A stretch of 39,435 nt of DNA from a virus. Positions 1,942 through 33,359 of the stretch are shown here, in pieces; within the stretch, counting starts at the first letter, position 1, and the number at the start of each line of letters is the position of its first letter. A program made the position numbers and the translations under genes. Under the pieces are notes generated by a model. It ran no database searches. It saw only the letters and a list, made by a program, of their open reading frames with translations, and had not been told where the DNA came from. Where the stretch lies: the UHGV virus genome UHGV-1377012; one strand, given 5' to 3'.

Positions 1942-2046
1942 AGTTACCACCGTTTAATGTGCATAAAGAACCCCCTTAGTTGGTGAGTTCATTATACACA
2001 ATAAACCATATGTGGATTAAATTTGATCGGATAACTCTTAACGAAA

Positions 2047-2061
2047 TTACCCTAGAGGTGA
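2047..2061. promoter_or_regulatory. Palindrome TTACC-CTAGA-GGTGA (one mismatch to TTACC-N5-GGTAA), candidate operator
   Basis: Lies 6 bp past the esterase stop and upstream of the holin-like gene; a minus-strand TATAAT (1991..1996) and CCACATATGG (2006..2015) lie between it and the holin start. Confidence 0.5.
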
Positions 2062-2066
2062 TTTGC

Positions 2067-3443
2067 CTAAATTTCTATCTCAAACGGAAGGCAATAATTC
2101 AGCATGCAATTGTCTGCATGATAGCGATCTTTAAAATGATTTGGGAATTCATCACTATCGCAAAGCTCTCCTATCCGTGACTCTTTAAGATAACTCACCG
2201 TACCTTTAAGGCCGGAAGTATTGATGCTCACAGTATCATCTGAAATGATCTTAACGTCGCTAGCAGATAGTTTTTTTCCTGTGAAATGAAAACCCATAGG
2301 ACAACCATCTTTTATAAATGAATACATTCCGTTGAGGGTTTTTCTAAATTGCAATGGCTTCACAGGAATATTAAATTTTATAATAATGCTGTTACCATCG
2401 ATAGAATGTGATTTATAACATAGAGGTGACCATGATGAACCTGACAACTTACTAGTTAAATACGCCTGTGCCATTTTTTCGCCATGTGCACGCTGGGCAT
2501 GTGGGTACATATGAATTTCGTTCGTCAGGTGATATCTTGGGCCAGAGATGTACATCTTAATGCCGGAATGTTTTGCTTCATCATGGGCCATGCGTTGCTC
2601 GACGTTAAGACCAAAGTGTGAGTTTATCCTTCTACCTTCGGTTTTAAAACCATGCCAACAGTAATTGCTTTGCTCAAAAATAAACTCTGGCTCTTTGCCC
2701 TGCCCTGTGATTTTTACAATATCTTTAACGTAATCATTTCTGAATGATAGAAGTTTTTCAGAATATCCTTTAGGGGCGATGGCATCATTTTCCCCCTGAA
2801 TCCAGAAGATGCCATCAACTTGAATATCACTTTTGATAATATCTTTTATTTTTTCGAGCATCCACATACCGTTCAGATAAGGGTAGCGGAATTTTGGCTC
2901 GCGATAATAAAGCAGTGATTTATTTCCTGATACTACATTGTAGTCAGAAGACTCTTTAGTTAGAGGTTTGTTATAGTTGTCACCATTAAGAATTAAATCT
3001 TTGCTAGGCTTAATAAGTTGCTCTATATACTGGGATCCCCTTCCGTGCCCGAAGATAATAAGATTGTCATTTGGAAACGCTTTTGAGATATGTGAAATTA
3101 TTCCGTATACAGGCCCTTCTCCTGCATCAATACCAAATGCCATTCTGTCTAAATTGGTTAAGCTTGCGCCGCCTGAGGACAAAGTAAATGCACTTGCCAA
3201 ATCAGTTGTGATGAATTTACTACCGTCTCTCTCACCCTCATATGATTCAAGATAAGAATCCCATGGGCTTGGTGTTCTCCATGTCTGTGAATAATCAACG
3301 GTTCCTGTTGAGTTGGATTGTCCGTAAATAATGAATACGCGGTTTTTCCTTCCAGCAACAAAATCTGCAAAAAGAAGACCAGATCCTGACAGCGCGCCGA
3401 TGGCCGCAGCTAATTTAATAAAATTTCTTCTGGAAACTGACAT
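2067..3443 (-). CDS. Secreted SGNH/SASA-family esterase (sialate O-acetylesterase-like), Tat signal peptide
   Basis: N-terminus MSVSRRNFIKLAAAIGALSGS is a twin-arginine signal; IIYGQSNSTG matches the GQSN catalytic block of SASA/SGNH esterases; visibly AT-rich; start moved to the ATG at 3443 with GAGGTG upstream. Confidence 0.65.
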   Translation of the reverse strand: MSVSRRNFIKLAAAIGALSGSGLLFADFVAGRKNRVFIIYGQSNSTGTVDYSQTWRTPSPWDSYLESYEGERDGSKFITTDLASAFTLSSGGASLTNLDRMAFGIDAGEGPVYGIISHISKAFPNDNLIIFGHGRGSQYIEQLIKPSKDLILNGDNYNKPLTKESSDYNVVSGNKSLLYYREPKFRYPYLNGMWMLEKIKDIIKSDIQVDGIFWIQGENDAIAPKGYSEKLLSFRNDYVKDIVKITGQGKEPEFIFEQSNYCWHGFKTEGRRINSHFGLNVEQRMAHDEAKHSGIKMYISGPRYHLTNEIHMYPHAQRAHGEKMAQAYLTSKLSGSSWSPLCYKSHSIDGNSIIIKFNIPVKPLQFRKTLNGMYSFIKDGCPMGFHFTGKKLSASDVKIISDDTVSINTSGLKGTVSYLKESRIGELCDSDEFPNHFKDRYHADNCMLNYCLPFEIEI

Positions 3444-3482
3444 AAACACCTCAAAAACGTCCTTGTTAATGAGGATATCACA

Positions 3483-5834
3483 TTAGAGATTTCCTGTTGA
3501 CTGCCAAGTGCCAGGAGTGCCGGCGGTAACACATACCCACTCCTTAGGGCTCCCGACAGCAGGAGAGGAATTTATGCATCGCGATCCCCTTGGCCAGGTC
3601 AAAGTGGTTGGAGCGGCGGTATCGTAAAGCACAGGGAGAGATGACCCTTGTTTCACCAAACTTCCAAGCCACGCTGGAACTGTTGGCACATCCCAACGAC
3701 AGCCAGAGTGGAAGAACGCTCCAACACCATCTCCGTACATTCTGATTGCGTCTCCAGTTGTATTTGTGCTGTGACAATCGATAAGGATTAGTGGTTCATT
3801 GTTCCATGAAACGTTTCTGAAGAAACCGTTGAACCTAACTCCTTCAAGTTTCGTAGCGGAGGTTACAGTGAATGCTATATCAGATGTGCCTGCGCCAATG
3901 TGGCTAAAGTTACAATTTTCAAATGTCAGATATCCGGTGGTTCCACCTGTACCTGTCATAACAACGCCACAAGAAGCAGAGCAATTTCTTACGGTAGTAT
4001 TATTGGCAGTGTTACCGAAAGCAGCAGATACGTTAGAAATGCTGACGTTTTCAACTGTGATATTGTCGCCATTGCTACAATGGATCGCCGTTGAATCGTA
4101 AATGTCACCATATTTTGTTATACTTCCTCCATTGAAATGGCAGCGAGTTCCTTGCAAAGAAATCATATAGCTTCCGCTAAATGACTGGCTCCATCTATGG
4201 ATATGGCAATTACTCAACTCAACGTTAAGTAGTGTTCCTGCATCATTGTAAATGTAGATGTCTATTTTTTTGTTATCGCCAGCCAGATGGTCGAAAATGT
4301 GGATGTAACGTGTAGTGGCATCATCTCCAGATTGTGAATACACACGAATGCCGTACTCGCTATTTCCGAATGTTTGATTTCCTTTAAAGGTTGTACCAGT
4401 GCTCTTCCAGGCAATACATCCTCTGCCGCCATCAGATATTTCTGTATCACTCAGATAACCATTATAGTTACCGACAGAATTGATAATTTCATTGAATGTC
4501 CCGTAACGGTCTTCAAGACCCATACCCCAGTTATTTTCAGAAATGCAATCCTGAATTTTACAACGTGTGCAATTGATCATCTGAATACCAGAGCCAGGGA
4601 CCCTTCTTACTGTCATTCCTTTAACAGAACTATAAGAGGTATCAGCAACTAATACCGCAGACACTACACTGTTTGCTCCAGCCCTGACACCTGTGCCAAC
4701 TATAAAACCACCTGAGGTATGTGTATTAGCCCCCCTTATCGCCAATATATAATTTGCCAGCGAAGTACCCTGGATTAACCTTGATGATCCAAAGTCTACA
4801 GACCTACCTGCTTGCAATGTTATAGTGGCATCAAGAAGATAATCACCACCTGTAAACTGCATTCTCTTGCCAACAGCAAACATGGCGTTAATTGCTGCTG
4901 AGCACGGGGTAACTCCATCAGGCACTGCGCCAGCCATTAATGGGTTAATGATATCAGCATTAACACGAATCCATGCCGCTCCACCAGGAGTCTTGAATAC
5001 GGTAACGCCGTTGTCTGTATATGCACTTCCATCAAGCACTGCGCGAAGCTGGCCACCACCGTAACCTGTGCCAGAGGTATATTCTTTCAGGAGCACCCGC
5101 TGACCATCGGAAGCTGGCTCCGTTGCACGGAGAACTGTGACGTTAGGGAATTGCCCTATCAATTTGAAGCCGTCACTTTTTGCCAGCTCCATCAGAACTT
5201 CAGATGCGGAAGCTGATGGCGGGAGAACGACAATTGCATTACCCATGCTATCAAACGCGGGCATTTTGTTTGCCCTGTCAACTGCTGATGGTAGCTGATT
5301 GATTGGCTCTGGTACGCGCAGAGTACGCATCAGGTTGCCACTGGACAGCGTATCAACATAATTCTTGGTAGCTGCATCCTGAGGGTCCCGTGGGTCGCGG
5401 AGATTGCGAATATAGTTGTTCAGCGCATCGTACCAGTTCGCGATGCTTGATGGTTTACGCAGCGCCAGGCGGAACACGCTGAATGCCTGTTGGATCAGCA
5501 TCGTCAGCTTATCGAATGCGTCCTCATGCACCTCTGCGAAGAACTTACCCTGGTTGCGCAGATCGGTATCCTGCGTAACCGGTAGCTCTCTTGATATAGA
5601 AATCTGATAACCGTTAACCAACGCCTTCGACAGAATTACATTGCCGCCGTTATACCCTCCCGCACCAGTGACTATGTAATCAGTATCAAGAGCCAGCACA
5701 GCGATATTTTCGTCAAGGTCAACCACCTGCACTACCAGATCAGATTCATTGAAAACCCTAAAGGTATAAGGGAATGAAGTCGTAACGCCATTGCCTGTGT
5801 ATTCGTTGTGGTCAACTTCGGTTGAGACCGTCAT
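3483..5834 (-). CDS. Tailspike / receptor-binding protein with probable beta-helix depolymerase domain
   Basis: 783 aa; N-terminal roughly 150 aa look like a virion-attachment domain, the remainder is rich in Gly/Asn/Ser/Thr repeats typical of right-handed beta-helix tailspikes; last structural gene before the cargo and lysis genes. Confidence 0.7.
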   Translation of the reverse strand: MTVSTEVDHNEYTGNGVTTSFPYTFRVFNESDLVVQVVDLDENIAVLALDTDYIVTGAGGYNGGNVILSKALVNGYQISISRELPVTQDTDLRNQGKFFAEVHEDAFDKLTMLIQQAFSVFRLALRKPSSIANWYDALNNYIRNLRDPRDPQDAATKNYVDTLSSGNLMRTLRVPEPINQLPSAVDRANKMPAFDSMGNAIVVLPPSASASEVLMELAKSDGFKLIGQFPNVTVLRATEPASDGQRVLLKEYTSGTGYGGGQLRAVLDGSAYTDNGVTVFKTPGGAAWIRVNADIINPLMAGAVPDGVTPCSAAINAMFAVGKRMQFTGGDYLLDATITLQAGRSVDFGSSRLIQGTSLANYILAIRGANTHTSGGFIVGTGVRAGANSVVSAVLVADTSYSSVKGMTVRRVPGSGIQMINCTRCKIQDCISENNWGMGLEDRYGTFNEIINSVGNYNGYLSDTEISDGGRGCIAWKSTGTTFKGNQTFGNSEYGIRVYSQSGDDATTRYIHIFDHLAGDNKKIDIYIYNDAGTLLNVELSNCHIHRWSQSFSGSYMISLQGTRCHFNGGSITKYGDIYDSTAIHCSNGDNITVENVSISNVSAAFGNTANNTTVRNCSASCGVVMTGTGGTTGYLTFENCNFSHIGAGTSDIAFTVTSATKLEGVRFNGFFRNVSWNNEPLILIDCHSTNTTGDAIRMYGDGVGAFFHSGCRWDVPTVPAWLGSLVKQGSSLPVLYDTAAPTTLTWPRGSRCINSSPAVGSPKEWVCVTAGTPGTWQSTGNL

Positions 5835-23217: not shown

Positions 23218-23294
23218 GTGGCATTAGCTCAGCTGGACAGAGCAACCGCCTTCTAAGCGGTTGGTCGCAGGTTCGAATCCTGCATGCCACGCCA
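23218..23294 (+). tRNA. tRNA-Arg (anticodon TCT, reads AGA)
   Basis: 77-nt cloverleaf: acceptor GTGGCAT/ATGCCAC, D-stem GCTC/GAGC, anticodon stem ACCGC/GCGGT with loop CTTCTAA, T-arm GCAGG-TTCGAAT-CCTGC, discriminator G and encoded CCA. Confidence 0.9.
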
Positions 23295-23495: not shown

Positions 23496-23510
23496 TTACC
23501 TTATGGGTAA
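23496..23510. promoter_or_regulatory. Perfect palindrome TTACC-TTATG-GGTAA, candidate operator
   Basis: 33 bp upstream of the ATG at 23543, directly after the terminator. Confidence 0.55.
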
Positions 23511-23542: not shown

Positions 23543-24433
23543 ATGCTTGACTTCATCCGTGACATTTACTCCTCTTTCCGCCAAGCATCTCTTGAGCGAG
23601 TGAAAAGCCCGTTCCTTGGGGCATTTGTTTTTTCCTGGCTTTGCTTTAATTGGCAGATGTTAGCAATTCTATTTTTTAGTTCTAAGGATATTGAAAAGCG
23701 CCTTGCTATTATTAATGGCTCTTTCGGCATCGTCAGCTTTTTAATTGCGCCAATATGCACTACAGCATTGATAGTTATCCTTTTACCGCAAATTAATAAA
23801 TTGATTACAATAATACAAGATAAACCTAACTCAGACACAATTGAAATGAGCCTTGCATCTAAAATAAAGATCGCCGAACTGCAGCAACTATTAGCAGAAA
23901 ATGAAGCAAGAAAGAAACTTGCTGATAAAAAAGAAGAACGCTTCATTGAAGAGAATATTATTTCAATAAAAAAAGACCATGAAAAAGCAATAGATAACCT
24001 TAAAGACAAAGAAAGTAAAATCTCAAATCTCACGGACACAATAACTGAACTTCAGAGCAAACTGGTTAAAGCTGAGGCCACTCTCAAAGTTGAACAGGAG
24101 TCAAGATCCCAAGTGCAGAATGAATTGATTATTGAAAAAGAGAACAAGCGGAAATTAGAAGACAACATTCTGCACCTTAATTTAAGTTTAAAAAAAAACC
24201 AATCAGAATTGGCCATTGCAAAAGAAGCCTATGATAATACCTTGATGGCTTATAATGAACTTAACACAACATTAAAAAAAGCAGAAAGCTCAATAATAAA
24301 CTTCAATGCTAACTTTCCTTTTTTAACTGACATAAATAACAGCACCCCAAATACATACTTAAAAATAAATAAAAATGCATGGGAGCATTTAGTTAGTTTA
24401 AATTTAAGTCTAAAGGAAAAAATACAAAAATAA
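23543..24433 (+). CDS. AT-rich membrane-anchored coiled-coil protein (cargo gene, function unknown)
   Basis: 296 aa; two N-terminal hydrophobic helices followed by about 200 aa of Lys/Glu/Leu-rich heptad-like sequence; very AT-rich; opposite strand to the flanking terminase and portal genes. Confidence 0.7.
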   Translation: MLDFIRDIYSSFRQASLERVKSPFLGAFVFSWLCFNWQMLAILFFSSKDIEKRLAIINGSFGIVSFLIAPICTTALIVILLPQINKLITIIQDKPNSDTIEMSLASKIKIAELQQLLAENEARKKLADKKEERFIEENIISIKKDHEKAIDNLKDKESKISNLTDTITELQSKLVKAEATLKVEQESRSQVQNELIIEKENKRKLEDNILHLNLSLKKNQSELAIAKEAYDNTLMAYNELNTTLKKAESSIINFNANFPFLTDINNSTPNTYLKINKNAWEHLVSLNLSLKEKIQK

Positions 24434-32389: not shown

Positions 32390-32620
32390 TCATGAGTAGA
32401 AGAAGTATGCCAGTTCTGCTTTTGAGCGCAGCCATTGTCTTGTTTTACAGGCTTTAAAAAGCCCATTCATCAATACCTTACCTGGCATTTTGCGCTTACC
32501 TGTTAAGTGAGTCTGGATATAGTGACTCGTCGTTCCGGCTTCCTGTGCGAAGGCTTCACGCTCATCCGGAGTAAGTGCAAGCCAGTGCTTTTTGAAATCG
32601 AAATGTCCGTTATCGCTCAT
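32390..32620 (-). CDS. Cro-like HTH regulator
   Basis: 76 aa; GTTSHYIQTHLTGKRKMPGKV resembles the Cro/CI-type HTH; first gene of the rightward-equivalent early operon, divergent from the repressor-like gene. Confidence 0.65.
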   Translation of the reverse strand: MSDNGHFDFKKHWLALTPDEREAFAQEAGTTSHYIQTHLTGKRKMPGKVLMNGLFKACKTRQWLRSKAELAYFFYS

Positions 32621-32774: not shown

Positions 32775-33359
32775 ATGAAAAGTATCCAGGACGTCCGCAG
32801 GCAAAATCTCAACGACTTGATCGACCGTGAATTCAATGGTGTTCAGACGCGGATGGCAGAAAAACTTGGAACTCAGGCAAATCTGGTAAACCGCTGGGCT
32901 CTTGGCAAGAAGGTTATCGGCGACCAGGTTGCGCGAAAAATTGAAGCTGCCGCCAATAAACCCCGTAACTGGCTTGATATCGATCGCTCGCTTTCTCAGG
33001 AAGGTTTTCAGCCTGTCGGCCCGAGCGATATAGGTCAGCTGGCGGCTCACAACCTGGAACGCTGGATGAGCGAAAGCCGCGACCTTTCAACACAGGGAAA
33101 ACTTCACCGCGCATCCGGCGTCGCCCAGGTGACAATCAGCCGCCTGTTAAACAATGAGGTCAGCGTTTCCATTTCCACCCTGGAGAATGTTGCATCCGCA
33201 TTCGGGCGTCACGGCTATGAATTACTGATTCACCCGCACGACCCTGCGACCATCAACTATGACCGCTCGCGCTACGCATTGTTACCCGAAACCGAGAAAG
33301 CAAAGATCGAAAGTTACATTGAATTTGTCATCAACCAGAACGAAAAAAACAAACAATAA
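32775..33359 (+). CDS. Repressor-like DNA-binding protein with two HTH-like segments and no recognisable S24 autopeptidase domain
   Basis: 194 aa; TRMAEKLGTQANLVNRWALGKK and GVAQVTISRLLNNEVSVSISTLENVASAFG look like HTH motifs; no Ala-Gly/Ser...Lys LexA-type cleavage module seen in the C-terminal region; divergent from the Cro-like gene and followed by a strong terminator. Confidence 0.55.
   Translation: MKSIQDVRRQNLNDLIDREFNGVQTRMAEKLGTQANLVNRWALGKKVIGDQVARKIEAAANKPRNWLDIDRSLSQEGFQPVGPSDIGQLAAHNLERWMSESRDLSTQGKLHRASGVAQVTISRLLNNEVSVSISTLENVASAFGRHGYELLIHPHDPATINYDRSRYALLPETEKAKIESYIEFVINQNEKNKQ

What the first reader, a model, noticed from the sequence alone, without database searches (positions are those of the whole stretch)
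2067..3443. Tat-exported SASA/SGNH esterase as lysogenic-conversion cargo between tailspike and lysis genes
The protein has a clear twin-arginine signal (SRRNFIK) and the GQSN block of sialate-O-acetylesterase-type SGNH hydrolases. The gene is much more AT-rich than its structural neighbours. A periplasmic or secreted O-acetylesterase could deacetylate sialic acids (like the prophage NanS-p enzymes of EHEC) or surface polysaccharide, changing nutrient access or receptor properties. A palindrome copy sits 6 bp past its stop.
Basis: partly seen in the sequence, partly recalled or inferred. Interest (0 to 1): 0.55.

Follow-up and report, generated by a model that had tools for sequence, protein, structure and literature searches.

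The report
Tat-exported esterase coupled to O93 tailspike
Right after its tailspike gene, this E. coli prophage encodes a sugar de-acetylating enzyme that descends from phage tail-fibre enzymes but carries a periplasm-export signal instead of a virion anchor, so it probably strips acetyl groups from the O-antigen its tailspike recognises, a kind of receptor editing I found no description of.

Summary
Window 2067-3443 (minus strand) encodes a 458-aa protein with a twin-arginine signal (SRRNFIK) and a SASA-type SGNH esterase core: GQS, QGE and the Block V His are all conserved. The gene has 39% GC and sits between the tailspike and the holins of a phiV10/epsilon15-like prophage.

All five complete E. 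coli genomes carrying this tailspike head are serogroup O93. The O93 O-antigen carries 2,6-di-O-acetyl-mannose.

Best reading: a periplasmic O-antigen de-O-acetylase that edits the partner tailspike's receptor from inside the cell. Expression in lysogens is unproven, and the operon layout argues for co-expression with the tailspike. The NanS-p/sialic-acid analogy is not supported. The "palindrome" is a repressor-operator-like motif of the phage backbone, not part of the module. No description was found in the searched library.

The parts
2067..3443 (-). Esterase gene (458 aa; exact protein WP_430528729.1): Tat signal, SASA-type SGNH catalytic domain and C-terminal beta-sandwich
   Evidence: dN/dS 0.06-0.17
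3366..3443 (-). Twin-arginine signal peptide, aa 1-26 (MSVSRRNFIKLAAAIGALSGSGLLFA|D). The cleavage site is inferred.
   Evidence: TIGR01409 above cut-off; RR conserved in all 458-aa homologs; low pLDDT and helical in the model; under purifying selection in divergent pairs
3312..3323 (-). Block I GQSN (aa 41-44): catalytic Ser43 and oxyanion Gln42
   Evidence: G41, Q42 and S43 at least 90% conserved in the 100-sequence alignment; SASA-defining feature per PMC9487903
2784..2798 (-). Block III QGEND (aa 216-220), the SASA (H)QGE motif
   Evidence: invariant in A1; G217 near-invariant in A2
2511..2525 (-). Block V TNEIH (aa 307-311): catalytic His311, with Asn308 where distant relatives have Asp
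   Evidence: H311 at least 90% conserved; position 308 is N in the subfamily and D in distant members; NanS also lacks the Block V Asp
2070..2426 (-). C-terminal beta-sandwich domain (aa ~340-458), shared with tail-fibre esterases
3444..3482 (-). Conserved 39-nt spacer carrying the GAGG ribosome-binding site
   Evidence: 92.5% identity between window and L007 against 75-80% in the flanking coding DNA
3437..3486 (-). Predicted RNA hairpin running from the tailspike stop codon to the esterase start. It pairs CCUC with the GAGG site and the stop region with the AUG region, a candidate for translational coupling.
   Evidence: predicted in all six loci; z -2.0 to -3.7 in four of five tested and -0.34 in L005; almost no covariation. 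Suggestive only.
3472..3500 (-). Only promoter-like element upstream of the esterase: TCAACA-N17(TG)-TATCCT, an extended -10 type with 8 of 12 consensus matches
   Evidence: found at the same position in all six loci by my own scan; below the threshold of the consensus tool. Unproven.
3483..5177 (-). Tailspike receptor-binding head (aa ~220-783, beta-helix), the esterase's constant partner
   Evidence: nucleotide identity across the whole module (2065/2073-5177): 95% to L001, 85% to L005, 72% to L007; protein comparisons; found only in O93 genomes
5178..5834 (-). Tailspike N-terminal virion-attachment part, belonging to the phiV10/epsilon15 backbone and not to the mobile module
   Evidence: phiV10 homology resumes at 5352; PHROG tail-family matches to aa 1-227
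2049..2059 (.). Copy of the backbone palindrome TTACC-N5-GGTAA (probable repressor operator), between the esterase stop and the holin start
   Evidence: homologous site at phiV10 24694 between oac and the lysis genes

Best explanation
The gene encodes a carbohydrate O-acetylesterase of the SASA/SGNH fold. It descends from the receptor-modifying esterase heads of phage tail fibres. It has lost the virion-attachment part and gained a twin-arginine signal, so it is exported folded into the periplasm of the cell that makes it.

It forms a fixed two-gene module with a beta-helix tailspike head that is specific for the O93-type O-antigen. That O-unit carries a 2,6-di-O-acetylated mannose, added by an acetyltransferase encoded in the O-antigen cluster that I infer to be cytoplasmic.

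In the periplasm the esterase would meet O-units, O-polymer and nascent LPS before they reach the surface, and would remove those acetyl groups. This edits the partner tailspike's receptor from the inside. The expected pay-off is less adsorption of the same and related phages to the producing cell, its debris or the lysogen, that is, exclusion or seroconversion by erasing a host mark.

Shown: the fold, the catalytic motifs, the signal motif, the linkage to the tailspike, the slot equivalence with oac, and the O93 association. Inferred: the substrate, the compartment of action, the timing and the pay-off.

On timing, co-transcription (and possibly translational coupling) with the tailspike during lytic growth is very likely. 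Additional low-level expression in lysogens from the extended -10-like element in the spacer is possible; I put that at about 0.4.

For: Export: TIGR01409 above its cut-off. The RR signal is conserved and under purifying selection.

Origin from virion esterases: PHROG 4201 'tail fiber protein'. The homologs at 39% identity are 658-769 aa, and one of them sits at the gpH position of a P2-like prophage. Of 2,017 profile hits, the best-scoring ones are mostly long proteins with the esterase region C-terminal. BFVD matches include the Vi-phage, PP99 and Possum tail-spike proteins; PP99 and Possum are described as polysaccharide-deacetylating.

Linkage: the same tailspike head, 39-40-nt spacer and esterase occur in epsilon15-like, P22-like, contractile-tail and other backbones, with head and esterase co-diverging.

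Slot: the module replaces phiV10's tailspike head plus oac exactly. In L013 it abuts gtrCBA.

Substrate: all five complete E. coli genomes with this head family are among the 10 O93 genomes out of 5,426, with at least two independent prophages. O93 carries Man2Ac6Ac and a MAT-like acetyltransferase, WexC.
Against: No experiment exists. The substrate is inferred only from linkage to the tailspike and from host serogroup. The serogroup of the window's own host and of the Enterobacter hosts is unknown.

The gene is on the tailspike's strand and upstream of its terminator. No consensus promoter was found. In this window there is no terminator or hairpin before the holin genes, so constitutive transcription would run into the lysis genes.

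Every characterised conversion gene in these slots is on the opposite strand. If the gene is expressed only late, a periplasmic enzyme reaches only newly made O-antigen, which weakens the pay-off.

Asn replaces the Block V Asp, although NanS also lacks that Asp. Pfam TAT_signal is below its gathering score. It is not known whether the tailspike prefers acetylated or de-acetylated O93.
Confidence: 0.5

Rival explanations
1. A soluble helper enzyme that acts in trans. It is made late with the tailspike, released at lysis, and strips acetyl groups from the O-antigen of neighbouring cells or debris. This would either prime neighbours for a tailspike that needs de-acetylated polymer or free progeny from debris. 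On this view periplasmic export is incidental.
For: Operon layout with the tailspike, insertion upstream of the tailspike's terminator, and the hairpin that masks the ribosome-binding site. No terminator before the lysis genes. Relatives act from outside the cell as virion enzymes.
Against: A conserved Tat signal under purifying selection is unnecessary for a protein that lysis would release anyway. There is no evidence on the tailspike's acetyl preference.
Confidence: 0.2
2. A periplasmic esterase for another acetylated envelope glycan, such as enterobacterial common antigen, colanic acid or a K antigen, or an accessory factor for lysis.
For: The SASA/CE6/CE20 fold says little about substrate. 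In this window the gene is adjacent to the lysis cassette. The host also encodes colanic-acid acetyltransferases WcaB and WcaF.
Against: In the other five contexts the gene is not next to lysis genes, but it is always next to the same tailspike head. That head is restricted to O93 genomes. A conserved glycan target would not predict that restriction.
Confidence: 0.1
3. A NanS-p-like sialate O-acetylesterase that gives lysogens access to O-acetylated sialic acids from mucin.
For: The Pfam family is named 'sialic acid-specific acetylesterase'. Some database records call the protein sialate O-acetylesterase. SIAE and NanS appear among the structural matches.
Confidence: 0.04
4. A virion component after all, either as a second spike or as a tailspike-esterase fusion made by read-through of the single stop codon that separates the two in-frame ORFs.
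For: In five of six loci the esterase ATG is in frame with the tailspike, behind one stop codon and 13 sense codons. Its relatives are virion fibres.
Against: L007 has a 40-nt spacer that breaks the frame while the gene stays intact. The chance expectation for being in frame without further stops is about 0.18 (my arithmetic). A fusion would bury a hydrophobic Tat signal inside the protein. No virion-anchor domain is present.
Confidence: 0.04
5. A catalytically weak or inactive glycan-binding protein, for example a periplasmic decoy, or simply a decaying remnant of a second tailspike gene.
For: Asn replaces the Block V Asp. A truncated 298-aa remnant exists in one degraded prophage.
Against: Ser, His, Gln and the QGE motif are all retained. 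dN/dS is 0.06-0.17 over the full length, including the signal peptide. NanS is active without that Asp.
Confidence: 0.05

Closest known systems
Virion-borne esterase tail fibres and tailspikes (cyanopodophage Pan3 tailspike, PDB 9vyh; P2-like gpH-position homologs P0005-P0009; more distantly G7C gp63.1, Vi-phage, PP99 and Possum spikes; SGNH receptor-binding proteins of Klebsiella prophages)
O-antigen seroconversion cassettes next to tailspike genes: Oac (Sf6, phiV10), GtrABC (P22, epsilon34, SfX), Wzy-beta/Iap (epsilon15)
   Same: Same genomic slot, directly downstream of the tailspike, and swapped together with the tailspike head. The window's module replaces phiV10's head plus oac exactly. 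The target polymer and the compartment (periplasmic face) are plausibly the same.
   Different: Those enzymes add groups or change linkages; this one would remove a host-made group. They are membrane proteins and are convergent to the tailspike (own promoter and terminator are annotated for Sf6 oac). This is a soluble Tat substrate, co-oriented with the tailspike, 39-40 nt behind it and inside its transcription unit. Expression in lysogens is not established.
Loss of O-acetylation in epsilon15 conversion of Salmonella Anatum (classical work of Robbins, Uchida and Losick; recalled from my own knowledge, since the epsilon15 genome paper was not available)
   Same: A Uetakevirus-type phage whose conversion includes disappearance of an O-acetyl group from the O-antigen.
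   Different: That loss was attributed to blocking the host transacetylase, not to an esterase. Epsilon15-type phages carry an O-antigen ligase/polymerase-family gene in this slot.
NanS (E. coli YjhS) and prophage NanS-p (for example phi24B gp84)
   Same: SASA family with GQS and QGE motifs. NanS, like this protein, lacks the Block V Asp. NanS-p is also phage-encoded in a late region and has a C-terminal jelly-roll domain.
Receptor-masking envelope proteins made by phages (T5 Llp, phi80/N15 Cor; recalled from my own knowledge)
   Same: A phage-encoded protein exported to the envelope of the producing cell that inactivates the phage's own receptor, protecting against superinfection and loss of progeny.
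   Different: Those are small lipoproteins that block a protein receptor stoichiometrically. This would be an enzyme that chemically edits a polysaccharide receptor.
Bacterial CE20/CE6 carbohydrate acetylesterases (XAC1771, 7kmm; 1zmb; 2apj) and mammalian SIAE
   Different: These are cellular enzymes for plant-polysaccharide breakdown or sialoglycan turnover. Sequence identity is 13-18%, and they have no phage context.

Membership tests
SASA / CE6-type SGNH esterases (Pfam PF03629) | Profile match above the curated gathering score | tested here: met
   38.7 bits against 24.8, E=1.1e-9. Only profile positions 107-225 align, because of a ~150-aa insertion after Block I.
SASA / CE6-type SGNH esterases (Pfam PF03629) | Block I GQS: catalytic Ser preceded by the oxyanion Gln (PMC9487903) | tested here: met
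   G41-Q42-S43, at least 90% conserved in 100 relatives
SASA / CE6-type SGNH esterases (Pfam PF03629) | Block III (H)QGE motif | tested here: met
   I215-Q216-G217-E218; QGE invariant in A1
SASA / CE6-type SGNH esterases (Pfam PF03629) | Block V catalytic His, with Asp at His-3 | tested here: inconclusive
   H311 is conserved. Position 308 is Asn here and Asp in distant members. E. coli NanS also lacks this Asp and is active.
SASA / CE6-type SGNH esterases (Pfam PF03629) | SGNH alpha/beta/alpha fold resembling solved SASA structures | tested here: met
SASA / CE6-type SGNH esterases (Pfam PF03629) | Acetylesterase activity | not testable with these tools
   Needs an enzyme assay
Tat (twin-arginine) export substrates | N-terminal S/T-R-R-x-F-L-K motif followed by a moderately hydrophobic h-region and an A-x-A-type c-region | tested here: met
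   S4-R5-R6-N7-F8-I9-K10, a 16-aa h-region, and L24-F25-A26|D27. RR is invariant in the four 458-aa homologs.
Tat (twin-arginine) export substrates | Curated HMM for Tat signals | tested here: met
   TIGR01409 19.4 bits against a 16.7 cut-off. Pfam TAT_signal scores 18.1 against 22.7, which is not met.
Tat (twin-arginine) export substrates | TatABC-dependent export of the folded protein | not testable with these tools
   Needs fractionation in wild type and a tatC deletion, and an RR-to-KK mutant
NanS-p prophage esterases | N-terminal DUF1737 (capsid-binding) domain ahead of the SASA domain | tested here: not met
   Pfam finds only SASA and TAT_signal. NanS-p architecture is described.
NanS-p prophage esterases | Closest structural or sequence relative is NanS | tested here: not met
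Virion tail-fibre / tailspike esterases | Esterase head homologous to those of fibre proteins | tested here: met
Virion tail-fibre / tailspike esterases | N-terminal virion-attachment or shaft region | tested here: not met
   Only 40 residues precede GQS, and they form a signal peptide. Relatives have 190-700 residues there.
Lysogenic-conversion (seroconversion) genes / morons | Located in the variable slot next to the tailspike and exchanged together with receptor specificity | tested here: met
   Replaces phiV10's tailspike head plus oac. Adjacent to gtrCBA in L013.
Lysogenic-conversion (seroconversion) genes / morons | Own promoter and terminator, that is, an independent transcription unit | tested here: inconclusive
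   Only a weak extended -10-like element (8 of 12 matches), conserved in six loci. No consensus promoter. Terminators follow the gene in L005, L007 and L013 but not in the window. The gene lies inside the tailspike's transcription unit.
Lysogenic-conversion (seroconversion) genes / morons | Expressed from the prophage and changes the host's O-antigen | not testable with these tools
   Needs RNA-seq or 5'-RACE of lysogens and NMR of the lysogen's O-antigen

The most novel reading that the evidence does not exclude
Subtractive seroconversion. A temperate phage recycles a tail-fibre esterase head as a Tat-exported periplasmic enzyme that erases a host-made O-acetyl mark from the O-antigen before it reaches the surface. 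This makes the lysogen or producer cell invisible to the partner tailspike. Where gtrABC sits next door, as in L013, the esterase may clear the sugar so that the phage glucosyltransferase can rewrite it. I found no description of an esterase-based O-antigen conversion, and none of a phage-encoded Tat substrate used for receptor editing. It would also explain why the tailspike head and the esterase are inherited as one unit.
Probability: 0.35. Interest if true: 0.75.

Novelty: new variant of a known kind. Interest (0 to 1): 0.6.

Why it matters
Phage-driven O-antigen change is known to work by adding acetyl or glucosyl groups or by changing linkages. An enzyme that removes a host modification from inside the cell would add a new mechanism to seroconversion and superinfection exclusion. 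It would also change how serotype and phage host range are predicted from prophage content.

It offers a clear example of domain repurposing: a virion receptor-modifying head turned into a secreted cellular enzyme by swapping the N-terminus. Tat export is a plausible solution for a domain that evolved to fold in the cytoplasm.

The tight tailspike-esterase module gives a directly testable pair (O93 polysaccharide, tailspike, esterase) for asking how O-acetylation gates tailspike recognition. For O93 glycobiology, it suggests that the reported non-stoichiometric acetylation could vary with prophage content.

Tried and rejected
1. I first dismissed the palindrome as a chance 8-11-mer or a decayed terminator. 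Searches reversed this. It is a genuine, over-represented backbone motif, and its resemblance to L005's terminator is coincidental.

2. The first AF2 model, built on 10 sequences, was too poor to use (pLDDT 58). I replaced it with a model built on 100 sequences.

3. Chaperone or tail-fibre-assembly role for the downstream gene: rejected, because a Tat-exported enzyme with conserved catalytic residues cannot serve cytoplasmic fibre assembly.

4. Read-through fusion: considered, because the ORFs are in frame in five of six loci. Rejected as a conserved feature because of L007's frame-breaking spacer.

5. The scan of GTDB species-representative genomes found nothing. tblastn of the phage collection found only distant (<28% identity) matches, three of the five annotated as tail fibre proteins.

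6. P0007 could not be located on a contig.

7. The epsilon15 genome paper (PMC2698709) is not held, so the statement about epsilon15's loss of acetylation rests on memory.

8. Seven literature searches found no description of a Tat-exported phage esterase or of esterase-based seroconversion (those aimed at this). This shows absence only within that library.

9. The spacer hairpin has no useful covariation, so I do not claim it as established.

10. The serogroup of the window's own host could not be determined, because the prophage lies near ppk-ppx, far from the O-antigen cluster.
Full report
OBSERVATION. The window is a phiV10/epsilon15-like (Uetakevirus) prophage. About half of window 1-8000 matches phages HEMP4, phiv142-3 and phiV10 at 88-90% identity, and the region between the tailspike head and the holins is not among the matched parts.

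On the minus strand, 2067-3443 encodes a 458-aa protein. It starts MSVSRRNFIKLAAAIGALSGSGLLFA|DF. The NCBIfam Tat-signal model TIGR01409 scores above its cut-off. Pfam's TAT_signal scores just below its own. Pfam SASA is met at 38.7 bits against a gathering score of 24.8. GC content is 38.9%, against 45.5% for the adjoining tailspike head and 49% for the whole window.

The neighbours are a beta-helix tailspike (3483-5834) upstream, and two holins, a GH19 endolysin and Rz/Rz1 downstream, all on the same strand. The described features are therefore all present.

WHAT THE PROTEIN IS. With a 100-sequence alignment, AlphaFold gives a confident model (pLDDT 88.8, pTM 0.87). Only the first ~30 residues are disordered or helical, as expected for a signal peptide.

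The motifs that define SASA enzymes, Block I GQS, Block III (H)QGE and the Block V His (PMC9487903), are present as G41-Q42-S43, Q216-G217-E218 and H311. They are conserved across relatives. The Block V Asp is Asn308 in this subfamily, but E. coli NanS also lacks that Asp. The gene is under strong purifying selection (dN/dS 0.06-0.17), including the signal peptide in the divergent comparisons.

WHERE IT COMES FROM. The best PHROG match is the C-terminal part of a 'tail fiber protein' family. The word-indexed search of 5.8 billion proteins finds only nine relatives. Three are 458-aa proteins with the same RR signal (77-97% identity). One is a truncated remnant. Five are 658-769-aa proteins at 39% identity whose extra N-terminal 230-350 residues look like fibre shafts. 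One of these five sits at the gpH tail-fibre position of a P2-like prophage.

A full profile search finds 2,017 relatives. Among the best 150, most are long proteins with the esterase region C-terminal, and some are bacterial enzymes with Sec-type signals. Among the 100 I aligned, only the window's own cluster has a short RR signal fused directly to the domain. Viral structure matches include the Vi-phage, PP99 and Possum tail-spike proteins. PP99 and Possum are described as polysaccharide-deacetylating.

I conclude, by inference, that a virion esterase head lost its anchor and gained a Tat signal. Tat export suits a domain that evolved to fold in the cytoplasm.

THE MODULE. In E. coli PSJ-36 and LR-25 the same protein (97% identical) lies directly after the tailspike of a P22-like prophage at dacD/sbcB. 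The tailspikes differ in their N-terminal virion-binding part but are ~91-95% identical from residue ~190-230 onward.

At nucleotide level the shared block is window 2065/2073-5177. It ends at the esterase stop codon. phiV10 homology resumes at 2062 and at 5352. The block therefore replaces phiV10's tailspike head plus oac precisely.

The same pair occurs in four further contexts:
- at a prophage end next to yedD (L005);
- in a contractile-tail phage (L007);
- in a phage with a Gp66-type tailspike N-terminus, next to gtrCBA (L013);
- in a P22 head-binding-type phage (L014).
Tailspike head and esterase co-diverge, from 95% down to 72% nucleotide identity across the module. Carriers are E. coli and Enterobacter hormaechei.

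LIKELY SUBSTRATE. PSJ-36 and LR-25 carry O93-family wzx/wzy, and only 10 of 5,426 complete E. coli genomes do. A sensitive search finds this tailspike-head family in just five genomes. They are those two plus YA-1, ij001 and EC_T6, which carry a 69%-identical head in a different P22-like prophage at a tRNA-Arg gene. All five are O93. That is at least two independent acquisitions, with a chance probability of about 3e-6 by my arithmetic.

The O93 repeat is ->2)-beta-Man-(1->3)-beta-Man2Ac6Ac-(1->4)-beta-GlcA-(1->3)-alpha-GlcNAc. About three quarters of the units are acetylated. The cluster encodes a MAT-like acetyltransferase, WexC (PMC10191223). Its homolog in PSJ-36 shows hexapeptide repeats, though below Pfam's cut-off.

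A soluble MAT/hexapeptide-type transferase presumably acts in the cytoplasm during unit assembly (my inference). If so, the periplasm is the first place where a soluble phage enzyme could intercept the acetylated O-unit. This gives the Tat signal a rationale.

EXPRESSION: THE OPEN POINT. In phiV10, Sf6, an epsilon15-type phage and the YA-1 prophage, the conversion genes (oac, an O-antigen ligase/polymerase-family gene, gtrABC) are convergent to the tailspike. Sf6's record annotates a putative promoter and terminator for oac.

The esterase is arranged differently. It is co-oriented with the tailspike, 39-40 nt behind it. In L013 it sits as a ~1.5-kb insertion between the tailspike stop and the bidirectional terminator that precedes gtrC in YA-1.

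The spacer is more conserved than the flanking coding DNA (92.5% against 75-80%). It can form a hairpin that pairs the GAGG ribosome-binding site and the start region with sequence at the tailspike stop codon. This is predicted in all six loci, with z -2.0 to -3.7 in four of five tested, but with no useful covariation. That is the classical layout for translational coupling.

The only promoter-like element is a weak extended -10 candidate, TCmACA-N17(TG)-TATCCT, at the same place in all six loci. The consensus scan finds none. A transcript from that candidate would start inside the hairpin and leave the ribosome-binding site free.

In this window no terminator or stable hairpin separates the esterase from the holin genes. 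Late co-expression with the tailspike is therefore very likely, and prophage expression is possible but unproven.

THE PALINDROME. The motif TTACC-N5-GGTAA is strongly over-represented: 21 sites against 5.7 expected, and 14 against 1.2 for the stricter form. Three copies lie between the divergent repressor-like and cro-like genes. phiV10 has 19 copies at homologous places, including one between oac and its lysis genes.

The copy at 2049-2059 is on the backbone side of the module boundary. The motif is absent from the five other modules checked. It is most likely the repressor operator of the lysis-gene promoter region, not a terminator or a feature of the esterase gene.

COMPARISON WITH KNOWN SYSTEMS. 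The protein is a member of the SASA/SGNH family. It works like the de-acetylating tailspikes but lacks their defining virion anchor. It occupies the seroconversion slot but lacks the independent transcription unit of known conversion genes.

It is not a NanS-p. It has no DUF1737 domain, and NanS-p is a capsid-decoration protein.

Seven literature searches found SGNH receptor-binding proteins in prophages and de-acetylating spikes. They found nothing on a Tat-exported phage esterase or on esterase-based seroconversion (those aimed at this; related papers read).

VERDICT. The best explanation (confidence 0.5) is a periplasmic O93 O-antigen de-O-acetylase genetically coupled to its tailspike, editing the receptor from inside the cell. 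I rate it a new variant of a known kind, with interest 0.6.

Noticed in passing
window 2049, 5941, 22882, 23498, 26521/26539, 30314/30376, 32322, 32659/32690/32707, 33419/33481, 39236 (and others): A recurrent 15-bp palindrome, TTACC-N5-GGTAA, occurs at 21 sites against ~6 expected and lies mostly in intergenic regions. Three copies sit between the divergent repressor-like (32775-33359 +) and cro-like (32390-32620 -) genes. phiV10 has 19 copies at homologous places. It is probably the Uetakevirus repressor operator, with single copies ahead of the lysis genes, the tailspike/antirepressor divergent region and a moron. phiV10's record does not annotate it.
   Followed up: partly
window 23218-23294 (+) and 23543-24433 (+): A tRNA-Arg(tct) is followed by a very AT-rich (32-36% GC) 296-aa ORF on the opposite strand to the structural genes. 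The ORF has an N-terminal hydrophobic region and a long coiled-coil-like tail, has no Pfam match, and is preceded by an operator copy at 23498. It looks like a second moron of unknown function, possibly a defence or exclusion gene.
   Followed up: partly
window 3437-3486 (-), and the same place in L001, L005, L007, L013, L014: A predicted RNA hairpin spans from the tailspike stop codon to the esterase start codon and sequesters the GAGG ribosome-binding site. This suggests translational coupling of the esterase to the tailspike. It is significant against shuffles in four of five loci tested, but has no covariation support.
   Followed up: yes
window 3441-3485 (-): The esterase ATG is in frame with the tailspike ORF, separated by a single stop codon (TAA here, TGA in three other loci) and 13 sense codons. 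This holds in five of six loci. L007 has a 1-nt longer spacer that breaks the frame.
   Followed up: yes
L017 11474-12397: In one E. coli assembly of the same prophage, an IS element (DDE_Tnp_1 transposase) is inserted between the esterase and the holin gene. This separates the intact tailspike-esterase pair from the lysis cassette.
   Followed up: no
L008 10001-10897: A 298-aa truncated esterase (63% identity, lacking the signal peptide and catalytic Ser) survives in a degraded prophage next to dacD. This is the same chromosomal site as the PSJ-36 prophage.
   Followed up: no
ON212266.1 (Enterobacter phage fGh-Ecl02) 29126-30781: A 153-kb virulent Enterobacter cloacae phage carries a tailspike head 75% identical to the window's. 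Together with the Enterobacter hormaechei prophage copies of the module, this suggests an O93-like glycan in Enterobacter.
   Followed up: no
L022 / L023 (E. coli YA-1, ij001) and L013: O93-type tailspike heads occur with three alternative neighbours: gtrCBA only (YA-1, ij001), esterase only (window, PSJ-36), or esterase plus gtrCBA (L013, whose gtr genes are 88.7% identical to YA-1's). This is a natural series for testing whether de-acetylation and glucosylation cooperate.
   Followed up: partly
protein P0016 (475 aa, from the deep search): A relative at 34% identity has only 32 residues before GQS, including 'IVGC', which resembles a lipoprotein lipobox. It may be a second, independent conversion of the fibre esterase into an exported protein. 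Its start codon may be mis-called.
   Followed up: no
window 1991-1996 (-): A perfect TATAAT box lies 41 nt upstream of the first holin-like gene's start (1950) and ~55 nt downstream of the operator copy. This is consistent with a separate, repressor-controlled lysis promoter in this backbone.
   Followed up: no
L003 (phage phiv142-3) 2148-2447: In the closest sequenced relative of the backbone, the slot between the tail fibre and the holin holds only a 100-aa hypothetical ORF. This illustrates how variable the slot is (oac, acyltransferases, an O-antigen ligase-family gene, the esterase, or a small ORF).
   Followed up: no
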